A stretch of 42,917 nucleotides of DNA from the IMG/VR virus record IMGVR_UViG_2718218102_000002; one strand, written 5' to 3'. Positions 2,217-38,702 of this stretch are shown one piece after another. Made by a program: the position numbers and the translations under genes. The notes under the pieces are model-generated. The model was given only the letters and a program-made list of their open reading frames with translations, did no database searches and was not told where the DNA came from. Source of the DNA: a virus. Taxonomy: Duplodnaviria; Heunggongvirae; Uroviricota; Caudoviricetes. The first letter of the stretch is position 1; the number at the start of each line of letters is the position of its first letter.

Positions 2217-5056
2217 TATGCAAGCCTCACAATATAGTTAAATGCGATGTTTTTGACGGTGTTTTCCGCGTTACCAGCAGCGTTAACGGTGATGGTGTGT
2301 CCATGTGAGCCAATCGCAACAGAGTGCGTATGAGCACCAATACCGACAGTATGCGCGTGTGCACCCGCAGATGCTGCTGTGCCGGACAGTGAGTGTGTAT
2401 GGTTTCCTTCTGAAGATGATTTACCTACCCATTGGGAGGTGCCACTGGTTAATGAGCCACTGATACCAACCTGATTAGTCCCGCTAACTTGAGTACTCCC
2501 TGCCGGAAACATTCCAGTAGGTTGACTCCCGCTATTCGTTCTGGGCCCAGTCTGACTATGTTGGTGGGCCCCAGCTGAACTTGTAGAGCCGCTCAGACTG
2601 TGCGTATGCGCCCCGGTGTTATTCGTGGATTTAGTGCCGTAATCAAACGACGATGTGGTTTTCGTACCCAAATCCGTACTGGATGCGCTGGCGCTGTGGG
2701 TGTGCGATTTAATGCCGTCCTGTTCCTGAGACAATACGGTACGACCACTGGCGGGCTTGCCCTTAATCGTCCAGCCACGCATATCAGGGATCACGCCTGA
2801 CGGATAAGCGACTGCAAGTTTCGGGTAGGCAGATTTGTCAAAAGTCTGCCCCTGCATCAGGGCATAACCAGACGGAACGGTATCCGATGGCCACGGGATT
2901 GGTGCGCCAGGCGGATAAAACTGCTCTGATGGCGTATAGAGTGAATAAACTGTACCGTCCGTTAACCCTTCCGGCTTATTAGCAGAATATGCTGGTGACG
3001 TATGAATCGTCACGCTGGCATTACTGGTATAATCCCATTGAATATTTACACCAGTCGCATAATTTCCGATTGCAACGTAAATATCGTAAGTATCACCAGA
3101 TGTATTGACCCAGGCAAAATTTGTAAACCCTGCCGAAGTGCGCTGCCATAAAGCACCAGTAATCCCCTTCGGGTTACCATTACCTGCACGCAAAACAAGT
3201 TCAGATATACCTGCCTGTTGAGGTGAACCGACGTTATATCCAGCCCCACCAATCAACGTAATTGAAACAACAGAACTCGCCTGCGGCATGGTTACCGTTG
3301 CTAATTTGAACCAACCAGCACCACCGCTAAATGACATAGTTGTTGAGTTAAGCGTACCAATATCTTTCGGTGTCAGTGTTATATCCGCTGAAAGCGCCTT
3401 ACCATTCACCTTACGGGCAGAAGGTACCCGACCATTCGCATTGTCATTAGCTGCTTTCACTGCTTTCGGTGTCGCAGCAAGCGTTTCAGATGCGCTGTTG
3501 GTTGCACTACTGAGCTGGACAATTCCTTTTTGTGCTGTCGTAGCGTCCTGAGCGGTATATTTCCCGCTAGCCAGGTCATACGCGGCCTTAACGGCTTTTG
3601 GCGTTGCCGCCAGTGACTCGGAAGTGCTGTTAGTCGCACTGCTGAGCTGTACTATCCCCTTTTTCGTCGTGCTCGCATCCTCAAGCGCCACGGCGGATGC
3701 AATATCCTCTGCCCGTTTTGCTGCTGTCTCGGCGCGCGTTGCCGCGGATTCCGCCGTACTTTTGCTCTGAGCTGCCGCCGTCGCACTGCCAGCTGCCTCT
3801 GTCGCCTTCGTGGATGCCGTCGTGGCGCTGCCCTTCGCTGCTGACGCTTGTCTGGTCGCCTCATCTTTTGAAGCAGACGCCGATGATGCCGATGACGCCG
3901 CCGAACTGGCTGACGATGCGGCAGCCGTTTTTGAGGATTCTGCGCTGGTTTCCGACGCTTTCGCGTTCGTTTCGGATGTCTTCGCTGCGGAAGCTGACCT
4001 CGCTGCTGCCGTGGCCTGTTCAGTGGCTTCGCCAGCCTTCGTTGTGGCTGTTGAAGCGGATGATGCGGCGCTTTCTGCCGACTTTCCGGCAGCGGTGGCA
4101 CTGGCTGAGGCCTGCCCGGCATTTGTTGACGCGGCGCTGGCAGATGAGGCAGCCGCTGTTTTTGAGTCTGCTGCTGCGGAGGCACTCTGTGCTGCTGCCG
4201 TCTCAGAAGACTTAGCGTTCGTCTCGGACGTTTTTGCCGCCTTCGCGGAATTGCCTGCCGCTGTTGCCGAGGAGGCTGCACTACTGGCGCTCGAGGCTGC
4301 GCTCGTTTCTGATGATTTTGCCGCCTCTTTTGAAGCCGACGCATCTCTGGCTGAGGTGGCAGCTTCTGACGCTTTCGTGGTCGCGGTGGATGCAGAAGTG
4401 GCGGCTGATTGTTGTGACGCTGAAGCATTCGTTTCTGACGTTTTCGCCGCACCGGCACTGGTGGCCGCCGCGCTTTTTGAGGACTCTGCAGCGGCAGCAC
4501 TTTTTGATGCTTCAGTGGCCTTTGTTGATGCCGTTACTGCGCTGGAAGACGCTGACTGAGCCGACGACGCGGCCTGTCCGGCTGACGTGCTGGCTGCGCG
4601 TGCGGAGTCCGCAGCATCAGTCGCATGGGTTGCCGCCTCACGGGCTGATGTGCTGGCATCGCTGGCTGACTTCTTCGCGGCTGCCGTGTTCTGTGCCACC
4701 GCGGACGCGTTACGCGCCACCTCTTCCACCATCAGCTCAAAACGGCGCAGTGCCTCCGGACGGACATCATCCTCAGTCATGGCACCAAGAAAATCATTCA
4801 GCGTACCGGGTTGAGAATCTTCATACACGGTGATGGTCCCGGCATGTGACGGCGGGAATCCCTCCACCAACAGAATAACGCTGTACTGACCGTACTCAAC
4901 GTCCATACTGTAACGCCCGGCTTCATCCGGATTTTCAGATGCCAGCGTGTTCACCACCACCGTGGTGCTGTTACGTTTTGCTTTCAGCTGGATTGTGCAG
5001 TTCTGTACCGGTTTTCCTGTGCCGTCTTTCAGTACACCTGAAATCTTTACTGCCAT
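2216..5056 (-). CDS. stf: Side tail fiber protein Stf, with Ala/Ser-rich repeat core and His-rich C-terminal repeats
   Basis: N-terminus [20 protein letters not shown] as recalled for lambda Stf. The track start at 5062 is a GTG; the ATG at 5056 is preferred. Duplicated [12 protein letters not shown]...[11 protein letters not shown] motif and HTHS/AHxH repeats near the C-terminus. Confidence 0.9.
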
Positions 5057-5120: not shown

Positions 5121-5720
5121 TCAGAACTTATAACCGACACCCACGATGAAACCGTCAGTGCGCCAGTCACCACTGCCGGAACCTTCATAAGCAATATCAA
5201 TGGCCACGGATTCGGTCGGGTTAAACTGCACGCCAGCCCCCCACGCCAGAGACGTGTTGCTGTGGCGACCGTCATCACTTCCGGTCAGCACATCATGCGT
5301 TTTCCCCTTGTTGTCAGTTACGCGGAGATAATCCCCGGAAAAAGTCGACACACGGCTGTAAGCCACGCCCGCCATCGCATACGCACTGAACCATTCATTC
5401 ACGCGCACAGAGGGCCCCGCCATTACGCTGAACCAGCGGTTACGAACGGAATCTTCATGCCAGCGGGTATCGCTGTAACGGGTAAGCTGGCGATTCTTGT
5501 CTCCTGCATAGCTGAAAGACGTCACCATCCCCAGTGTGTCCGTAAACTCATAACGGTATTTCACGTTAATCCCGTTCAGATCATCGCTGCCGGGAACGTT
5601 CGTCGAGACATGAAGATACCCCGCGCTCAGCGTGGACTGATGTTCAGACGCCCATGCAGGCGTACCGGATACGGCCAGACAAATGGCTGCGGACAAAATG
5701 GCGGCATAAAGTTTACGCAT
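5121..5720 (-). CDS. lom: Outer membrane protein Lom (Ail/Lom family)
   Basis: 199 aa with signal peptide (…AVSGTPAWA) and C-terminal GYKF beta-barrel ending; sits between J and stf as in lambda. Confidence 0.9.
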
Positions 5721-5786: not shown

Positions 5787-9188
<3,402 letters not shown>

Positions 9189-33539: not shown

Positions 33540-34465
33540 AGCTCCACCCCGTAAATCCAGTCAGTGTTTGTCAGGTCGAGTTTTGGTTTGCTGGCAGTCA
33601 CACCAGCCTGTTGCTTGTTGCGGTTAATTTCGAGCTGAGTCCACTTGTCGCGGAGTTTTGCTGGACTCAGCACGTTACCGGACCAGAAGTTGTCCTGGCA
33701 GGCCCAGCGGAACAGAACGCACATGTCGCGATGGTTACGCCCGTCACGCTCACGCATCAGGCGGATGTCGTTGGCCCACCCTGCAAAATTCGGTTTTCTG
33801 GCTGATGGCGCGATGGTCTTCACCATGTCAAACATCCACTCTGCGGCGGTCAGGTCTTCTGCTGTCCCCCACTTGCTGCCGCTCTGAATTGCAGCATCCG
33901 GTTTCACCACAGGAAGATCGTTTTCTGGCTGGTCAGAGGATTCGCCAGAATTCTCGGACGAAAAAGGTTTTATATTGTCTTTTGTTAGTTTGTCTTTTGT
34001 GTTTACCTGATTCGGGTAAACGTCTTTACCTGATTTGGGTAAACTTTTCTTACCTGATTCAGGTAAATTTACCTCTTTCAGGTAAACTTTATTTTTCTTA
34101 CCTGATTCGGGTAATGTTGACCATTCACTGACCACATTATTAATGCCGATATTCCGCCCGCTCTGAATAAAAATCCCACGCTTTACCAGAACACTTTTTG
34201 CAGCAGAACACTTGTGCGGCAATATCCCGGTCAACTCGGAAAGTTGCTCGTTGCTCACCCAATCCAGTTTTTTATTAAAGCCATATGTTTTGCGCATGAC
34301 AGCCAGGAAGACCAGAAGCTGGTGCTGTGTTAATCCGGCCAGCATCACAGCTTCCAGCAACTCATTTGCAATGCGCGTATAACCATCATCGAGATCTGCC
34401 ACGCGCGGCTCCTTTTGTGCCACATCCGGCACTGGAAAATTGAATATCTCAGCAGTGTTTGCCAT
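33536..34465 (-). CDS. O: Replication initiator O
   Basis: Start set at MANTAEIFNF (GGGAGG Shine-Dalgarno). N-terminal domain resembles lambda O (VADLDDGY, RKTYG-N); the gene contains the iteron array. Confidence 0.85.
   Translation of the reverse strand: MANTAEIFNFPVPDVAQKEPRVADLDDGYTRIANELLEAVMLAGLTQHQLLVFLAVMRKTYGFNKKLDWVSNEQLSELTGILPHKCSAAKSVLVKRGIFIQSGRNIGINNVVSEWSTLPESGKKNKVYLKEVNLPESGKKSLPKSGKDVYPNQVNTKDKLTKDNIKPFSSENSGESSDQPENDLPVVKPDAAIQSGSKWGTAEDLTAAEWMFDMVKTIAPSARKPNFAGWANDIRLMRERDGRNHRDMCVLFRWACQDNFWSGNVLSPAKLRDKWTQLEINRNKQQAGVTASKPKLDLTNTDWIYGVEL
34002..34115. repeat. ori: Origin of replication: five ~18-19-bp palindromic iterons (TTTACCTGATTCGGGTAAA-like) inside O, next to an AT-rich stretch (33961-34000)
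   Basis: Iterons at 34002-34020, 34025-34043, 34050-34067, 34068-34086 and 34098-34115. Confidence 0.75.
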
Positions 34466-34551
34466 AATTCCTCCCGCAATGAGTGTGTTACGATTTGCAC
34501 CTGAAAGTCGGTTCTGTTCGCGCAGACCGGCTTTCGCCATTTCTGAACCTG

Positions 34552-35097
34552 TCATATTGCCCCCAGCATGGTGGTGACCATCGCCATCAATGGACCAGCC
34601 AGATCCGGGTCCACACGAAACATCGACACAATGCCTTCACTCATCTCCTTCAGTTTCTGGTGGCGTGGTGCGTTGAGAATGACAGCCTGTTTTGCCTCAC
34701 TGAGTTCCTTTTCCATTTCAGCCAGCCGAGCCATGTAGCTATCCTGCTCAACCAGGTGGCCGCGATATTCCAGCGGTAGTACCGCCAGAATTGCCGGGGT
34801 CAGTTCACGCACGTTATTTCGGTATTTTTCAGAATCGAATTTGTTATCGAGAAAGCGGAACAGCTTCTGGCGTGCACGGCTGACATCATCAGGGAAATCG
34901 ATGGTGCCGCCGCCCTGCTCCCGATACTCATTCACAATGAGTGCGGCAACAACATCCTGATTATCTGCAGCCGACCAGGCGCGAACGGCATCACGGATTT
35001 TTTCGTGGCCTGGCGCCTGTTTTGTTTGAGAACGATTTATCACCGCAGTCGGGCTAAATCCGCTAGTCTGTTGGTATGTAAGTGGTTGCATAGTCAT
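34552..35097 (-). CDS. Hypothetical regulator in the cII position (CII-like or YdaT-like); function uncertain
   Basis: 181-aa ORF between cro and O; no family confidently recognised by eye. Confidence 0.4.
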   Translation of the reverse strand: MTMQPLTYQQTSGFSPTAVINRSQTKQAPGHEKIRDAVRAWSAADNQDVVAALIVNEYREQGGGTIDFPDDVSRARQKLFRFLDNKFDSEKYRNNVRELTPAILAVLPLEYRGHLVEQDSYMARLAEMEKELSEAKQAVILNAPRHQKLKEMSEGIVSMFRVDPDLAGPLMAMVTTMLGAI

Positions 35098-35121
35098 TGC
35101 CTTATCAGTTAACGCCGCAGT

Positions 35122-35349
35122 TTAGGCGGCAGAATTACTCGCGTTAAACAATGGTGCGAGGTCGGGACGAATATCTGCTGGTTTAATCTTTCCACCAGTG
35201 GCTGAGACAATTTTCATTACATAGCGGGCATCAATTCCGCCACCGTGTAGCCAACGCCAAACTGTGGGTTGGGCTACACCGCATAGATCTGCCAGTCGTT
35301 TTTGACTACCTGTAATACTGATTGCGAGTTGAATGGTTTGATTTGTCAT
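35122..35349 (-). CDS. cro: Cro-like HTH repressor
   Basis: 75 aa from the ATG at 35349 (track start is a TTG). HTH motif QKRLADLCGVAQPTVWRW; divergent from cI across the operator region. Confidence 0.7.
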   Translation of the reverse strand: MTNQTIQLAISITGSQKRLADLCGVAQPTVWRWLHGGGIDARYVMKIVSATGGKIKPADIRPDLAPLFNASNSAA

Positions 35350-35459
35350 TATCAATTCCTATTGGTATTGCAATGAATAAATAATAGCAATGCGTATTAA
35401 TCCAAGCAATAGCAAAACGTGTTTTGACCATCAATACGCAAGCGTATAAATTAAAACTT
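35350..35459. promoter_or_regulatory. Right operator/promoter region (oR with divergent pR and pRM-like promoters)
   Basis: Three ATAGCAAT/ACCAATAG-type sites spaced about 22-23 bp apart (35359-35375, 35381-35398, 35404-35418). Plus strand: TTGACC (35424-35429) and TATAAA (35445-35450) just before the cI ATG. Minus strand: TTGCTT-17nt-TATTAT upstream of cro. Confidence 0.5.
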
Positions 35460-36152
35460 ATGAAAAAAGAAACTCTTGCTGATCGCTTAAACCTAGCGAT
35501 GGAACAATCTGGAATGTCTCAAGGCGCTCTTGCAAAGGCGTCTGGCGTAGCTCAACCCACAATCTGGAGACTGACAAGCGGCAACGCGCGCGGCTCAACA
35601 AAAATTGTTGAAATAGCTAATGCATTGGGTGTTCGAACAGAATGGCTCTCATCAGGCATAGGCCCGATGAGAAATGACGGTCAACAATCAGGGAAGCCTG
35701 CTGTCAGCTATTCCAAATACTTTAAAATTGACGTTCTTGATATAGAAGTGAGTGCCGGGCCGGGAGTCATCAACCGTGAGTTTGTAGAAGTTCTACGCTC
35801 GGTTGAGTACTCGTTTGACGATGCTCGTCACATGTTCGATGGTAGGAAGGCAGAAAATATCCGCATCATTAACGTACGCGGTGACAGCATGTCAGGAACG
35901 ATTGAACCTGGTGATCTTCTATTCGTTGATATCACGGTTAAATCTTTCGACGGTGATGGTATCTATGCGTTTCTGTACGACGACACAGCCCATGTAAAGC
36001 GCCTGCAAATGATGAAGGATAAGCTGCTGGTTATCTCTGATAACAAAAGCTACTCACCGTGGGACCCGATCGAGAAAGATGAGATGAACCGGGTATTTAT
36101 CTTCGGGAAAGTTATTGGGAGCATGCCGCAGACGTATAGGAAGCATGGATAG
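35460..36152 (+). CDS. cI: CI-type repressor (N-terminal HTH plus C-terminal S24 LexA-like autopeptidase)
   Basis: HTH motif QGALAKASGVAQPTIWRL; GDSM and a downstream Lys (HVKRL) typical of the S24 Ser-Lys dyad. The ATG at 35460 is preferred over the track TTG at 35424. Confidence 0.85.
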   Translation: MKKETLADRLNLAMEQSGMSQGALAKASGVAQPTIWRLTSGNARGSTKIVEIANALGVRTEWLSSGIGPMRNDGQQSGKPAVSYSKYFKIDVLDIEVSAGPGVINREFVEVLRSVEYSFDDARHMFDGRKAENIRIINVRGDSMSGTIEPGDLLFVDITVKSFDGDGIYAFLYDDTAHVKRLQMMKDKLLVISDNKSYSPWDPIEKDEMNRVFIFGKVIGSMPQTYRKHG

Positions 36153-36232
36153 TACCAATTAAAAATTATCAACCGGGCATTGTGCTCATTCAGTAAAACA
36201 ACTTAATTATTCATTTTAGAATGGAGAACTTA

Positions 36233-37294
36233 ATGGATACTTTAAAATATGAGAAATTCTCTGATTTTGATCACAATGACCCATTTTTTGACTCTTTAAA
36301 AAAAGATTATAAAGAGTTTCCTCTTTGGTTAGAAAAAAAAGCCAGAGAAGGAGAATCAGCTTATGTGCTCTATGATGACAAGCATAAAATCGAAGGTTTT
36401 ATGTATCTAAAAGAAAATGATGATGCAAATGACATTAATCCAGCGCTCCCACCAGGACGTCATCTAAAGATAGGAACATTCAAATTTGAATCTAAAGGCA
36501 CCCTTCGCGGACAACGATTTCTAAAAAAAGCGTTTGACCATGCATTTTCATCAAAATCTGATGATATTTATGTTACTGTTTTCGACAAACACGTCCATCT
36601 AATAAAACTTTTCCAAACGTACGGATTTTACATTCATGGTGAAAAAGAAACACATAACGGGAAAGAGTTTGTATATGCGAGGTCTTTGCATGAGCCTTAT
36701 GGTGATATTTTATTAGATTACCCTCGAATAATGACATCAAGGGCCAACAAATATTTACTGGCGATTTATCCCGAATATCACACTAGACTATTCCCTGATT
36801 CAAAACTTGTAAATGAATCACCAGATATTGTCAAAGATATATCCCATGCTAACAGCATTCATAAAATTTACATATGTGGAATGCGTTCTGTGATGGGAAT
36901 GAAAAGAGGAGATATCATTGTCATCTATAGAACCGGAGACAAAAAAGGGCCAGCTCGCTATCGTTCTGTAGCCAGTACATTATGTGTAGTTGAGAGCGTA
37001 AAAAATATTTCTGAATTTTTAAGCGAAGATAGTTTTGTAGACTATTGTATTCGTTTTAGCGTATTTTCTGAAGATGAACTCAGAAAAATCTATAAAGAAC
37101 GTCGATACCCTTTCATTATAAGATTCACATACAATCTGTCTTTGCCAAAGAGACCCAATCGTGCTATTTTAATAGATCATGTGGGGCTAAATGGTTCGCG
37201 TGCATTCCGATGGAGTCACTTTAAACTCACAAATGAGCAGTTCTTAAAGATCATCGAGTTAGGCAAGATAAATGAAAGTTTTATTATCCATTAA
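36233..37294 (+). CDS. Hypothetical two-domain protein: possible GNAT-like N-terminal half and ASCH/PUA-like C-terminal half
   Basis: 353 aa from the second ATG (GGAG Shine-Dalgarno). N-terminal segment LRGQRFLKKAF…IYVTVFD…LFQTYGFYIHG loosely resembles GNAT motifs A/B. Domain calls are by eye and tentative. Confidence 0.55.
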   Translation: MDTLKYEKFSDFDHNDPFFDSLKKDYKEFPLWLEKKAREGESAYVLYDDKHKIEGFMYLKENDDANDINPALPPGRHLKIGTFKFESKGTLRGQRFLKKAFDHAFSSKSDDIYVTVFDKHVHLIKLFQTYGFYIHGEKETHNGKEFVYARSLHEPYGDILLDYPRIMTSRANKYLLAIYPEYHTRLFPDSKLVNESPDIVKDISHANSIHKIYICGMRSVMGMKRGDIIVIYRTGDKKGPARYRSVASTLCVVESVKNISEFLSEDSFVDYCIRFSVFSEDELRKIYKERRYPFIIRFTYNLSLPKRPNRAILIDHVGLNGSRAFRWSHFKLTNEQFLKIIELGKINESFIIH

Positions 37295-37649
37295 GCCTGA
37301 GTTTGCAGAAAAAATATTGAACGGAACAAAGCGGTTCGAGTTTCGTAAAGGTATATTCAAAAATCCGCAAATTAGCACCGTTGTTATTTATGCCACGATG
37401 CCATTAGGTAAAGTTGTTGGTCAATTCCGTATTGAATCAATACTAAGTGACGAACCGGAATCTCTTTGGAAAAAGACGGAAAAGCACGCAGGTATTTCTA
37501 AGCAATTTTATGACTCATATTATTCAGGTAGAGAAAAGGCCTACGCAATAAAAATTGGTGAAGTGGAAAGATATAAAGAACCAATTCCTATCTCTGCTCT
37601 AGGTAGTAATATTAAGCCACCACAATCATATCTTTACCTACCTGCGTAA
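37272..37649 (+). CDS. ASCH-domain protein (PUA-like fold)
   Basis: 125 aa; N-terminus MKVLLSIKPEFAEKILNGTKRFEFRK is typical of ASCH proteins. Overlaps the upstream gene by 23 nt. Confidence 0.65.
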   Translation: MKVLLSIKPEFAEKILNGTKRFEFRKGIFKNPQISTVVIYATMPLGKVVGQFRIESILSDEPESLWKKTEKHAGISKQFYDSYYSGREKAYAIKIGEVERYKEPIPISALGSNIKPPQSYLYLPA

Positions 37650-37653
37650 GAAT

Positions 37654-37680
37654 CCCGGCCACCGTGCCGGGTTTTCTTTT
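37654..37680 (+). terminator. Intrinsic terminator closing the cI operon
   Basis: cccggc-caccgt-gccggg followed by ttttctttt, 5 nt after the ASCH gene stop. Confidence 0.65.
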
Positions 37681-37764
37681 GTCCCCTCATCACACAAACC
37701 GTTCGAAAAACCACCACATCCTCCCTTCAGTTATCGCTATGCGATGCAAGTCACAAAATTAATT

Positions 37765-37870
37765 CTTTTTGCTATCAAACATTTAATATCAAAACACATC
37801 AACCAATAGCAATAAGTATTGATATCACCAATAGCAATAGCTATTATCACCATATCGCAACAACACAACG
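37765..37870. promoter_or_regulatory. Putative left operator region (oL) with repeated CCAATAGCAAT motifs
   Basis: CCAATAGCAAT at 37803-37813 and 37829-37839, plus ATAGC-related sequence at 37769-37781; same motif family as the oR sites. Confidence 0.4.
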
Positions 37871-37920
37871 ATACGGCAACCACCTGATTCACCGTTGCGA
37901 TGACCGCTTAGATCCGCAGT

Positions 37921-38331
37921 TTGAATTTCAGCAGGCTTCGGGGAGTGCGAGGGGTGAAACGGACGCGTGAACGTCGGTGTGACCAGCTGAAATTAACTCA
38001 ACATTTCATACCTCAGTCGCTTCAACGAGGCGGTTTAGTTATGACAACCGGCGGCCATCCACCGCCTGAATACGCGCAGAAGTCTCTATATGTTCAGCAG
38101 CCCAGCTTACGGGCAGGAGTTTTTATGGTTCATCAACATTACGGAACACAGACCGTTAATCGCGGTGCGGTCATGCCAGGAATGCTGGTCAAACACAAAG
38201 ATGGTACCTGGACTGCATCAGCTAATTTACGCGGACGGCTTTATCTGCATCGCGGCATCGAGCGCACTTATACCCGTGACTTGCTCGTGGAAGTTTTTCT
38301 CGACGGACGCGGCAACGGCCTGAATCACTAA
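37921..38331 (+). CDS. Hypothetical protein in the N position; Arg-rich N-terminal stretch; start codon uncertain
   Basis: Track ORF starts with TTG; internal ATGs at 38041 (MTTGG…) and 38128 (MVHQH…, AGGAG Shine-Dalgarno). The stretch [10 protein letters not shown] loosely resembles an N-type arginine-rich motif. Higher GC than neighbours. Confidence 0.3.
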
Positions 38332-38405
38332 CCCCCTTTCCTGTTTTCCTAATCAGCCTGGCATTTCGCGGGCGATATTTTCACAGCTATTTCAGGAGTT
38401 CAGCC

Positions 38406-38702
38406 ATGAACGCTTATTACATTCAGGATCGTCTTGAGGCTCAGAGCTGGGTGCGTCACTACCAGCAGATCGCCCGTGAAGAGAAAGAGGCAGAACTGGC
38501 AGACGACATGGAAAAAGGCCTGCCCCAGCACCTGTTTGAATCGCTATGCATCGATCATTTGCAACGCCACGGGGCCAGCAAAAAAGCCATTACCCGTGCG
38601 TTTGATGACGATGTTGAGTTTCAGGAGCGCATGGCAGAACACATCCGGTACATGGTTGAAACCATTGCTCACCATCAGGTTGATATTGATTCAGAGGTAT
38701 AA
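38406..38702 (+). CDS. gam: Gam (RecBCD inhibitor), short form
   Basis: 98 aa, starting [15 protein letters not shown], matching lambda Gam as recalled. Confidence 0.9.

What the first reader, a model, noticed from the sequence alone, without database searches (positions are those of the whole stretch)
35350..35462. Tripartite operator-like repeats and a probable leaderless cI
Between the divergent cro and cI genes are three ATAGCAAT/ACCAATAG-related sites with about 22-23 bp periodicity, and the same motif recurs twice at 37803-37839 on the far side of the cI operon (oL position). That matches lambda-style oR1-3/oL logic with a distinct operator specificity, so a new immunity type is plausible. 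A TTGACC…TATAAA promoter ends only about 10 nt before the cI ATG with no Shine-Dalgarno, suggesting a leaderless cI transcript like lambda pRM.
Basis: partly seen in the sequence, partly recalled or inferred. Interest (0 to 1): 0.5.

Follow-up and report, generated by a model that had tools for sequence, protein, structure and literature searches.

The report
Prophage repressor operators, common immunity type
This is the on/off control region of a lambda-like E. coli prophage: real repressor-binding repeats flank the repressor gene, but the layout is the textbook one and the same module is already common in sequenced phages and genomes.

Summary
The repeats are real and far beyond chance. They are copies of a 16-bp palindrome, consensus AATAGCAA|TTGCTATT.

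- **oR sites:** three copies sit 25 bp apart, centre to centre, between cro and cI. They are oR1 35383-98, oR2 35408-23 and oR3 35433-48.
- **oL sites:** two more, also 25 bp apart, overlap a strong leftward promoter 2.4 kb away. They are oL2 37805-20 and oL1 37830-45.

It missed oR3, which lies inside the cI promoter. It counted instead a weaker fourth site (35354-69) over the cro ribosome-binding site. It also gave the period as 22-23 bp rather than 25.

Relatives in six genera and 118 viral contigs keep the sites and their spacing while the spacers drift. A phage with a different cI DNA-binding domain and cro has a different operator cassette inside identical flanks.

Leaderless cI is plausible but unproven. 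TTGACC-17-TAAATT lies a fixed 7 nt before the ATG, that stretch varies in sequence, and no Shine-Dalgarno is present.

The immunity type is not new as sequence. It is 99% identical in six phage records (4A7, Lambda_4C10, D2, 1W, 3W), present in 718 of 5,426 complete E. coli genomes, and shares its operators with Salmonella BTP1 and ST104. I found no published operator mapping. Verdict: an ordinary lambda-type switch, newly delineated.

The parts
35122..35349 (-). cro gene (75 aa, HTH protein of the YdaS/Cro type). Its Shine-Dalgarno AGGA lies 7 nt before the ATG.
   Evidence: phrog_35 transcriptional repressor, E 9e-24. It is 32% identical to the cI N-terminal domain and shares the helix GVAQPT(I/V)WR.
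35354..35369 (.). Auxiliary operator-like site D, AATTCCTATTGGTATT. It lies 29 bp from oR1, over the cro ribosome-binding site, at about +6 to +21 of the predicted pR transcript.
   Evidence: It is the 4th best weight-matrix hit of the window, score 16.8. It is present at -29 (+/-1) in most relatives but weak in the Salmonella phages. Its GTAT half is invariant in alignment A1. The conservation is confounded by the cro ribosome-binding site.
35381..35409 (-). Predicted pR: -35 TTGCTT (35409-35404), a 17-bp spacer, and -10 TATTAT (35386-35381). The predicted start is near 35374.
   Evidence: Read from the sequence. It has the same architecture as pL. The consensus scan did not call it because the -35 matches only 3 of 6.
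35383..35398 (.). oR1, AATAGCAATGCGTATT. It lies in the pR spacer and overlaps the pR -10.
35408..35423 (.). oR2, AATAGCAAAACGTGTT. It overlaps the pR -35 by 2 bp and abuts the pRM -35.
   Evidence: It is invariant or nearly so in all relatives.
35424..35452 (+). Predicted cI maintenance promoter (pRM analogue), TTGACC-17-TAAATT. The cI ATG follows 7 nt after the -10.
   Evidence: Both hexamers are invariant in alignment A1. TATAAATT is found in 51 of 52 distinct viral-contig versions.
35433..35448 (.). oR3, AATACGCAAGCGTATA. It lies in the pRM spacer and overlaps the pRM -10.
35460..36152 (+). cI repressor (230 aa): an N-terminal HTH domain with recognition helix AQPTIWRL from residue 31, a candidate Ala99-Gly100 cleavage site, and Ser143 and Lys180 of an S24 peptidase domain.
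   Evidence: Peptidase_S24 1.4e-18, HTH_3 1.3e-6. (434 repressor and UmuD are the closest solved structures). (motif positions).
36221..37649 (+). Two accessory genes in the rex slot, downstream of cI on the same strand: a 357-aa protein and a 125-aa ASCH-domain protein. Together they match the candidate defence pair PDC-M11A/B.
   Evidence: They are annotated GevT/GevA in PV340567.
37654..37681 (+). Intrinsic terminator-like hairpin plus T-run, at the end of the cI operon.
37761..37776 (.). Conserved 16-mer AATTCTTTTTGCTATC with one operator half-site. It is a possible weak distal oL site.
   Evidence: Weight-matrix score 8.8, rank 12 in the window. It is conserved as AATTCnTTTnGCTATC in relatives. 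It lies at the edge of the cassette swapped in PhiR47_2.
37785..37800 (.). Degenerate remnant of a third oL site, AATATCAAAACACATC. Only one half-site remains.
   Evidence: Score 2.95 here. The same position holds a strong site in the Klebsiella and Raoultella relatives and in 14 of 61 viral contigs.
37805..37820 (.). oL2, AATAGCAATAAGTATT. It overlaps the pL -35 by 2 bp.
37819..37847 (+). pL, TTGATA-17-TATTAT. The predicted start is near 37854.
   Evidence: 10 of 12 matches.
37830..37845 (.). oL1, AATAGCAATAGCTATT. It lies in the pL spacer and overlaps the pL -10.

Best explanation
The region is the right operator and promoter region (oR, pR and pRM) of a lambda-type immunity module. The sites at 37805-37845 are the matching left operator over pL.

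**Who binds.** The repressor is cI, an HTH domain fused to a LexA/UmuD-type self-cleaving domain. The small Cro protein carries almost the same recognition helix. Both are inferred to bind as dimers to 16-bp palindromes of consensus AATAGCAA|TTGCTATT.

**In a lysogen (inferred).**
- cI fills oR1 and oR2 and blocks pR. It fills oL1 and oL2 and blocks pL. Each pair sits 25 bp apart, at -16.5 and -41.5 from the predicted starts.
- The dimer at oR2 abuts the -35 of the cI promoter, as lambda cI does when it activates pRM.
- oR3 lies between the -35 and -10 of that promoter, so high cI or Cro would shut it off.
- The cI promoter also drives the two accessory genes up to the terminator at 37654.
- Its transcript probably starts at or 1-3 nt before the A of the cI ATG, so cI would be translated from a leaderless or nearly leaderless mRNA.
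- DNA damage would remove cI by RecA-stimulated self-cleavage at Ala99-Gly100.

**Shown by sequence and comparison:** the sites, their spacing, their overlap with promoter-like hexamers, and their co-variation with the cI and Cro recognition helices.

**Inferred only:** actual binding, occupancy order, activation, looping and the transcript start.
For: **Statistics in the window**
- The palindrome pattern gives 7 hits against 0.97 expected, and 6 of them lie in the two control regions.
- A weight matrix trained on other genera ranks the six sites as the top six of the window.

**Comparative footprint**
- Ten relatives from E. coli, Salmonella, Klebsiella, Kluyvera, Citrobacter and Raoultella keep sites at offsets 0, +25 and +50 in oR, and at 0 and -25 in oL. 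The spacers between them vary (alignment A1).
- In 52 distinct versions from 118 viral contigs, half-site positions of oR1 and oR3 diverge 2% from consensus. Spacer positions diverge 26%.
- In 61 of 62 contigs with at least 4.5 kb downstream, a 25-bp pair of strong sites lies 1.7-3.1 kb beyond oR. Only 1 other strong site occurs on the cro side in 1.17 Mb of locus sequence.

**Natural specificity swap**
- PhiR47_2 has the same cI C-terminal domain, accessory genes and flanks. Its cI N-terminal domain and cro are different. Its ~95-bp oL cassette carries ACAAC..GTTGT repeats instead.
- The recognition helix AQPTIWR(L/I) is identical in every relative that has ATAGC half-sites. It reads SQAAIQKI in PhiR47_2.

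**Proteins and promoters**
- cI has HTH_3 and Peptidase_S24 domains. The 434 repressor and UmuD are the closest solved structures.
- Cro and the cI N-terminal domain share GVAQPT(I/V)WR.
- pL and the cI promoter are called by the consensus scan.

**Leaderless reading**
- The -10 to ATG distance is fixed at 7 nt in all versions. That stretch has ten sequence variants, none like a Shine-Dalgarno.
- In BTP1, dRNA-seq shows the cI-bstA operon transcribed from a single start site at the cI promoter (PMC7067206).
Against: - No binding, footprint or transcript 5'-end data exist for this element. I found no published operator mapping for this specificity in the searchable library.
- The pR -35 (TTGCTT) matches consensus at only 3 of 6 positions, and the promoter scan did not call it.
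- oR2 and oR3 overlap invariant promoter hexamers, so part of their conservation could be promoter constraint.
- Site D overlaps the cro ribosome-binding site and is weak in the Salmonella phages.
- The window has only two strong oL sites, where lambda has three.
- More distant relatives (Fraca, ASU11) carry GGAGG 8 nt before the cI ATG, so leaderless translation is not general in the family.
- The exact BTP1 start coordinate was not in any text I could read.
Confidence: 0.85

Rival explanations
1. The three operators are 35354-69, 35383-98 and 35408-23, with a 22-23 bp period, and they define a previously unseen immunity type.
For: All three are high-scoring sites. The specificity differs from HK022.
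Against: The spacings are 29 and 25 bp. A site of equal strength at 35433-48 is conserved in every relative and lies inside the cI promoter. The 35354 site is weak in BTP1 and ST104, which keep the other three. The module is 99% identical in six phage records and is present in 718 complete E. coli genomes.
Confidence: 0.08
2. cI is not leaderless. In lysogens the cI mRNA starts well upstream, for example from a promoter inside or beyond cro. The TTGACC-17-TAAATT match is conserved only because it overlaps operators.
For: No 5'-end data were available. The hexamers overlap or abut oR2 and oR3, so their invariance is confounded. Relatives Fraca and ASU11 have a GGAGG ribosome-binding site before cI.
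Against: No Shine-Dalgarno is present in any of the 52 versions. The -10 to ATG distance is fixed at 7 nt although the sequence there varies. TTGACC lies outside the 16-bp oR2 yet is invariant. BTP1 dRNA-seq shows a single start site for the cI operon, described as the cI promoter. Lambda cI from pRM is the classic leaderless precedent (my own knowledge).
Confidence: 0.25
3. The palindromes are bound by Cro only, or by another phage protein such as the YdaT/CII-like protein, and not by cI.
For: Binding was not tested. Cro's helix is nearly the same as cI's.
Against: The operator sequence co-varies with the cI N-terminal domain while the cI C-terminal domain and the flanks stay the same. The sites cover pL, which must be silenced in a lysogen, where cI but not Cro is made. 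CII-type activators act at establishment promoters, not over pL and pR (established lambda biology).
Confidence: 0.04
4. The repeats are chance similarity in AT-rich promoter DNA.
For: The region is AT-rich, and the promoter scan as a whole is not enriched over shuffles (8 found against 8.2 expected).
Against: The enrichment, the cross-genus conservation with drifting spacers, the fixed 25-bp spacing at two loci, and the 61 of 62 paired oL occurrences.
Confidence: 0.01

Closest known systems
Phage lambda oR/oL, pR/pRM/pL and the cI-Cro switch
   Same: cI and cro are divergent. Three palindromic operators span about 66 bp between them. oR1 overlaps the pR -10, oR2 lies next to the pRM -35, and oR3 lies inside pRM. 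A second operator cluster covers pL about 2.4 kb away. Accessory genes (rexAB in lambda) are co-transcribed with cI and followed by a terminator. The repressor has a LexA-type cleavage domain. The maintenance transcript is probably leaderless.
   Different: The operator sequence differs: AATAGCAATTGCTATT here, 16 bp, against the 17-bp TATCACCGC-type sites of lambda. The spacing is 25/25 bp rather than 24/23. Only two strong oL sites are present. There is an extra candidate site over the cro ribosome-binding site. The cI promoter has a near-consensus -35 (TTGACC). Cro is of the YdaS type, the cII slot holds a YdaT-like protein, and no N gene follows pL.
Immunity regions of Salmonella phages BTP1, ST104, SE1 and ST160, and of E. 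coli phages 4A7, Lambda_4C10, D2, 1W, 3W, PhiR30_1, PhiR70_1, PhiR68_2 and Perceval
   Same: They share the same cI family. The DNA-binding domain is 88% identical in the Salmonella phages and at least 98.8% identical in the E. coli phages. The same three oR sites and two oL sites occur at the same 25-bp spacing. The same TTGACC-17-TAAATT lies 7 nt before the ATG. In BTP1 the cI operon includes a defence gene (bstA) and has a single start site (PMC7067206).
   Different: The cargo between cI and pL differs: bstA in BTP1, orf23 in ST104, and PDC-M11 (GevTA) here. The Salmonella phages have a 69%-identical Cro and only a weak equivalent of site D. I found no operator description for any of these phages.
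Phage HK022 immunity region (Carlson and Little 1993, cited in PMC8053113)
   Same: It is a lambdoid cI with cooperative adjacent operators, extra operators beyond the canonical three, and demonstrated oL-oR looping. The ST104 record annotates its cI as similar to HK022 cI.
   Different: Its cI is only 40% identical. Its operators read TGAAC-N5-GTTCA. Its oL-oR distance is about 700 bp.
Phage 434 repressor and Cro
   Same: It is the closest solved structure to the cI N-terminal domain (E about 2e-5). Repressor and Cro share a similar recognition helix and the same operators.
   Different: The 434 operators are 14 bp, ACAA-N6-TTGT (my own knowledge). The recognition helix sequence is different.

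Membership tests
Lambda-type (lambdoid) cI/Cro immunity module | Divergently transcribed repressor (HTH plus S24 self-cleaving domain) and cro genes, separated by a roughly 100-bp control region. | tested here: met
   cI is 35460-36152 (+) with HTH_3 and Peptidase_S24. cro is 35349-35122 (-). The gap is 110 bp.
Lambda-type (lambdoid) cI/Cro immunity module | Several palindromic operators in oR that overlap pR and the cI maintenance promoter. | tested here: met
   Three 16-bp palindromes 25 bp apart overlap TTGCTT-17-TATTAT (-) and TTGACC-17-TAAATT (+). They are conserved across six genera.
Lambda-type (lambdoid) cI/Cro immunity module | A second operator cluster (oL) of the same specificity over pL, on the far side of cI. 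| tested here: met
   Sites at 37805-20 and 37830-45 lie over TTGATA-17-TATTAT. The same pairing is seen in 61 of 62 viral contigs.
Lambda-type (lambdoid) cI/Cro immunity module | Operator specificity set by the repressor and Cro recognition helices; the immunity module is exchangeable. | tested here: met
   PhiR47_2 has a different cI N-terminal domain and cro, and a swapped operator cassette in identical flanks.
Lambda-type (lambdoid) cI/Cro immunity module | Physical binding of cI and Cro to the operators, cooperativity and oL-oR looping. | not testable with these tools
   This needs EMSA, footprinting or a looping assay.
Lambda-type (lambdoid) cI/Cro immunity module | RecA-dependent self-cleavage: an Ala-Gly site and a Ser/Lys dyad. 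| tested here: met
   The sequence motifs SAGPG (A99-G100), GDSM (S143) and HVKRL (K180) are present, with an S24 match at E 1.4e-18. Cleavage itself was not tested.
Leaderless cI mRNA (as lambda pRM) | The transcript's 5' end lies at or within a few nt of the AUG, with no Shine-Dalgarno. | tested here: inconclusive
   No Shine-Dalgarno is present. The -10 ends 7 nt before the ATG in all 52 versions. No mapped 5' end was available.
BTP1/ST104-type immunity specificity | The same recognition helix, the same operator consensus and the same arrangement. | tested here: met
   The helix AQPTIWRL is identical. The N-terminal domain is 88% identical. Sites lie at 0/+25/+50 in oR and 0/-25 in oL. Cross-immunity was not tested.
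HK022 immunity specificity | The HK022 cI protein and its TGAAC-N5-GTTCA operators. | tested here: not met
   cI is 40% identical. The pattern scan finds no AATAGC-type sites in the HK022 region. The HK022 oR carries TGAACTTATGGTTCA repeats.

The most novel reading that the evidence does not exclude
The switch may have more operators than the lambda template. A fourth oR site lies over the cro ribosome-binding site (35354-69, 29 bp from oR1). The oL side has variable extra sites: a third strong site in about a quarter of relatives, and a conserved half-site 16-mer at 37761-76. These might give a looped repressor complex, or a Cro autoregulation step, that works differently from lambda. Natural single-base operator variants, such as those in BTP1's oR3 and oL2, might then tune spontaneous induction.
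Probability: 0.2. Interest if true: 0.4.

Novelty: new member of a known kind. Interest (0 to 1): 0.25.

Why it matters
It gives a concrete, testable operator map for one of the commonest lambdoid immunity types in E. coli, found in about 13% of complete genomes. The map covers consensus, coordinates and promoter overlaps. The same specificity is used by the medically relevant Salmonella prophage BTP1.

The map allows three things:
- prediction of homo- and heteroimmunity from sequence;
- design of reporter or orthogonal repressor-operator pairs;
- a direct test of whether BTP1's unusually high spontaneous induction is linked to its operator variants.

It does not reveal a new kind of regulation.

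Tried and rejected
- **HK022 identity.** The ST104 record calls its cI "similar to HK022 cI". I rejected this: cI is 40% identical and the operators are different.
- **Literature on these operators.** I searched for BTP1 with "operator", for HK022 OR1, and for the text string ATAGCAAT with operator, repressor and phage. Nothing relevant turned up. PMC206910 (Carlson and Little) is not held.
- **Exact start site of BTP1 cI.** It is not in the supplements held for PMC7067206 or PMC6333337, and none are held for PMC5856525.
- **Papers naming GevT/GevA.** Two searches gave no relevant hit.
- **Rfam scan of 34000-38600.** Only chance-level matches.
- **Fold of the pL leader, 37854-38045.** No more stable than shuffles, z -0.05.
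- **The TTG at 35424 as the cI start,** as annotated in BTP1. Rejected for three reasons. It is the -35 hexamer itself. The 12 extra codons change non-synonymously among relatives. The alignment to the 434 repressor begins at residue 7 of the ATG-started protein.
- **A site in the 25-bp register upstream of oR1 (35358-73).** Weight-matrix score -35, so no site lies there.

Full report
**Setting.** The window is a lambdoid prophage of E. coli, and its + strand corresponds to lambda's leftward direction.
- On the minus strand lie cro (35349-35122), a YdaT/CII-like gene (35097-34552), and replication genes O and P.
- On the plus strand lie cI (35460-36152), two accessory genes (36221-37294 and 37272-37649), a terminator-like hairpin (37654-71), a strong promoter, then kil-like, gam, bet and exo genes.
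- cI has an HTH_3 domain and a Peptidase_S24 domain. Its candidate cleavage and catalytic residues are A99-G100, S143 and K180.
- Its N-terminal domain is closest to the 434 repressor among solved structures, and its C-terminal domain to UmuD.

**Checking the observation.** The repeated motif is real.
- AATAGCAA occurs 6 times in the window against 1.5 expected. Four of these are in the two control regions.
- The unit is a 16-bp inverted repeat. The pattern AATASSNNNNSSTATT with at most one mismatch gives 7 hits against 0.97 expected. No shuffle out of 100 reached 7.
- Six of the seven hits are at 35354, 35383, 35408, 35433, 37805 and 37830.
- A weight matrix built only from relatives in other genera ranks exactly these six as the top six positions of the 42.9-kb window. 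They score 16.4-23, while the best hit in shuffled sequence averages 12.8.
- The spacing is 25 bp centre to centre within 35383/35408/35433 and within 37805/37830. It is 29 bp between 35354 and 35383.

**Promoters.**
- The consensus scan finds TTGATA-17-TATTAT at 37819-47 (pL, 10 of 12 matches) and TTGACC-17-TAAATT at 35424-52 (the cI promoter).
- On the minus strand I read TTGCTT-17-TATTAT at 35409-35381 as pR. Its -35 is weak and the scan did not call it. Its layout copies pL.
- In both pR and pL, one operator fills the spacer and overlaps the first four bases of TATTAT. The next operator overlaps the -35 by 2 bp. Site centres fall at -16.5 and -41.5 from each predicted start.
- Relative to the cI ATG, oR2 is centred at -44.5 and directly abuts TTGACC. 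oR3 is centred at -19.5, between the -35 and the -10.
- This is lambda's oR geometry (established knowledge), with a different operator sequence.

**Comparative evidence.**
- The cro-cI-oL block is 99% identical in six phage records of five names: 4A7, Lambda_4C10, D2, 1W and 3W.
- The DNA-binding domain is at least 98.8% identical in PhiR30_1, PhiR70_1, PhiR68_2 and Perceval. It is about 88% identical in Salmonella phages BTP1, ST104, SE1 and ST160 and in Klebsiella phages.
- The cro-cI block is found at 80% coverage or more in 718 of 5,426 complete E. coli genomes.
- Prophages of Kluyvera, Citrobacter and Raoultella also carry it.
- In all ten aligned relatives the three oR sites lie at 0, +25 and +50, and the two oL sites at 0 and -25. 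Alignment A1 shows conserved operators and hexamers separated by drifting spacers.
- A viral-contig scan seeded on oR2 plus the -35 returned 120 loci, of which 118 had enough flanking sequence to analyse. These gave 52 distinct versions. Half-site positions of oR1 and oR3 differ from consensus at 2% of cells, the central 4 bp at 3%, and spacers at 26%.
- In 61 of 62 loci with at least 4.5 kb downstream, a 25-bp pair of strong sites lies 1.7-3.1 kb beyond oR. The distance changes with the cargo genes. Only one other strong site occurs on the cro side in 1.17 Mb of locus sequence.

**Specificity swap.**
- Phage PhiR47_2 shares the cI C-terminal domain, the accessory genes, the terminator and the pL-proximal transcript at about 97% identity.
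- Its cI N-terminal domain is different, its Cro is only 46% identical, and it has no AATAGC-type sites.
- At oL, about 95 bp (window ~37760-37853) are replaced by ACAAC..GTTGT repeats inside otherwise identical flanks. The same repeats occur in its oR.
- The cI recognition helix is AQPTIWR(L/I) in every relative with ATAGC half-sites, including Fraca and ASU11 at 66-75% domain identity. It is SQAAIQKI in PhiR47_2.
- Cro carries (A/K)QPTVWRW and is 32% identical to the cI N-terminal domain.
- The operators therefore track the cI and Cro DNA-binding helices, as expected for an immunity module.

**Leaderless cI.**
- No Shine-Dalgarno precedes the ATG at 35460.
- The -10 TAAATT ends 7 nt before it. 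A start at the usual distance would fall on T35459 or A35460.
- Across 52 versions the 7-nt stretch has ten sequences (AAAACTT, GAATATT, TGAGATT and others) but always the same length. None resembles GGAG.
- In BTP1, dRNA-seq shows cI and bstA as one operon from a single start site at the cI promoter (PMC7067206). I could not retrieve the coordinate.
- More distant relatives (Fraca, ASU11) have GGAGG inside the oR3 spacer, 8 nt before the ATG. The leaderless layout is therefore specific to this clade.
- I rate leaderless or near-leaderless translation at about 0.7.

**The extra sites.**
- 35354-69 (AATTCCTATTGGTATT) scores as well as oR2 and oR3. It is found at -29 (+/-1) in most relatives, with a variable centre and an invariant GTAT arm.
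- It overlaps the cro Shine-Dalgarno, which confounds the conservation. It is weak in BTP1 and ST104. It may be an auxiliary operator. Its ligand and role are open.
- At oL, a third strong site 20 bp upstream of oL2 exists in Klebsiella and Raoultella relatives and in 14 of 61 viral contigs. In the window it has decayed to a half-site (37785-800).
- A conserved AATTCnTTTnGCTATC at 37761-76 marks the edge of the swapped cassette.

**Comparison and novelty.**
- The element works like lambda's oR/oL switch. It meets every sequence-level criterion of a lambdoid immunity module. Binding, cooperativity and looping are untested.
- It is not the HK022 type: cI is 40% identical and the operators are TGAAC-N5-GTTCA.
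- It belongs to the same specificity family as BTP1 and ST104. The literature notes that immunity region as unlike P22's, without describing its operators (PMC5322425).
- I found no published operator map. The delineation here is therefore new detail on a known kind of system, in a module already abundant in databases.

**Verdict.** The lambda-style interpretation is right. "New immunity type" is not supported as a sequence novelty. Leaderless cI is plausible. Interest is low to moderate.

Noticed in passing
window 36221-37649 (+): The two genes between cI and pL, in the rex slot, match the PADLOC candidate defence pair PDC-M11A/B (E 2e-133 and 7e-52). The second has an ASCH domain. They are annotated GevT toxin and GevA antitoxin in phage PhiR47_2 (PV340567). 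They lie on the same strand as cI and end at a terminator-like hairpin at 37654-71, so they are probably expressed in the lysogen. Relatives carry other cargo in this slot, such as bstA in BTP1 and a ParA-like gene in a Klebsiella phage.
   Followed up: partly
window ~37760-37853 vs L001 (PhiR47_2) ~4565-4658: A cassette of about 95 bp holding the oL operators and pL is exchanged between two phages whose flanks on both sides are nearly identical. The cI N-terminal domain and cro are exchanged too, but the cI C-terminal domain is not. This is a very tight mosaic boundary for an immunity-specificity swap.
   Followed up: yes
window 37854-38331 (+): No N-like antiterminator gene follows pL. The first ORF is Kil-like (phrog_294, E 2e-38) after an untranslated stretch of about 90-190 nt. 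That stretch has no Rfam match and no unusual fold (z -0.05).
   Followed up: partly
window 35122-35349 (-) and 34552-35097 (-): Cro and the protein in the cII slot hit the Pfam families named YdaS_toxin and YdaT_toxin (Rac prophage). PHROGs calls them a transcriptional repressor and a CII-like activator. In this context the Pfam "toxin" names look misleading.
   Followed up: no
L005 (BTP1) 3465-4190; also 3474-3489 and 5551-5566: The BTP1 record starts cI at a TTG that is the -35 hexamer of the cI promoter, 36 nt upstream of the conserved ATG. This is probably a mis-annotated start. BTP1's oR3 (AATACTCAAGCGTATA) and oL2 (AATAACAAAACGTATT) each differ by one base from ST104's. BTP1 is reported to have very high spontaneous induction (PMC5322425). 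Any link is speculation.
   Followed up: no
L007 (Fraca) ~3455-3485; L008 (ASU11) ~3445-3473: More distant relatives with the same recognition helix keep ATAGC..GCTAT sites. They also place a perfect GGAGG Shine-Dalgarno in the 6-bp centre of the site just before the cI ATG. There the operator and the ribosome-binding site coincide, and cI is not leaderless.
   Followed up: partly
L006 5927-5942, L012 ~6180-6195; window 37785-37800: A third strong oL site 20 bp upstream of oL2 is present in the Klebsiella and Raoultella relatives and in 14 of 61 viral contigs. It has decayed in the window. The number of oL sites is therefore variable within one immunity type.
   Followed up: partly
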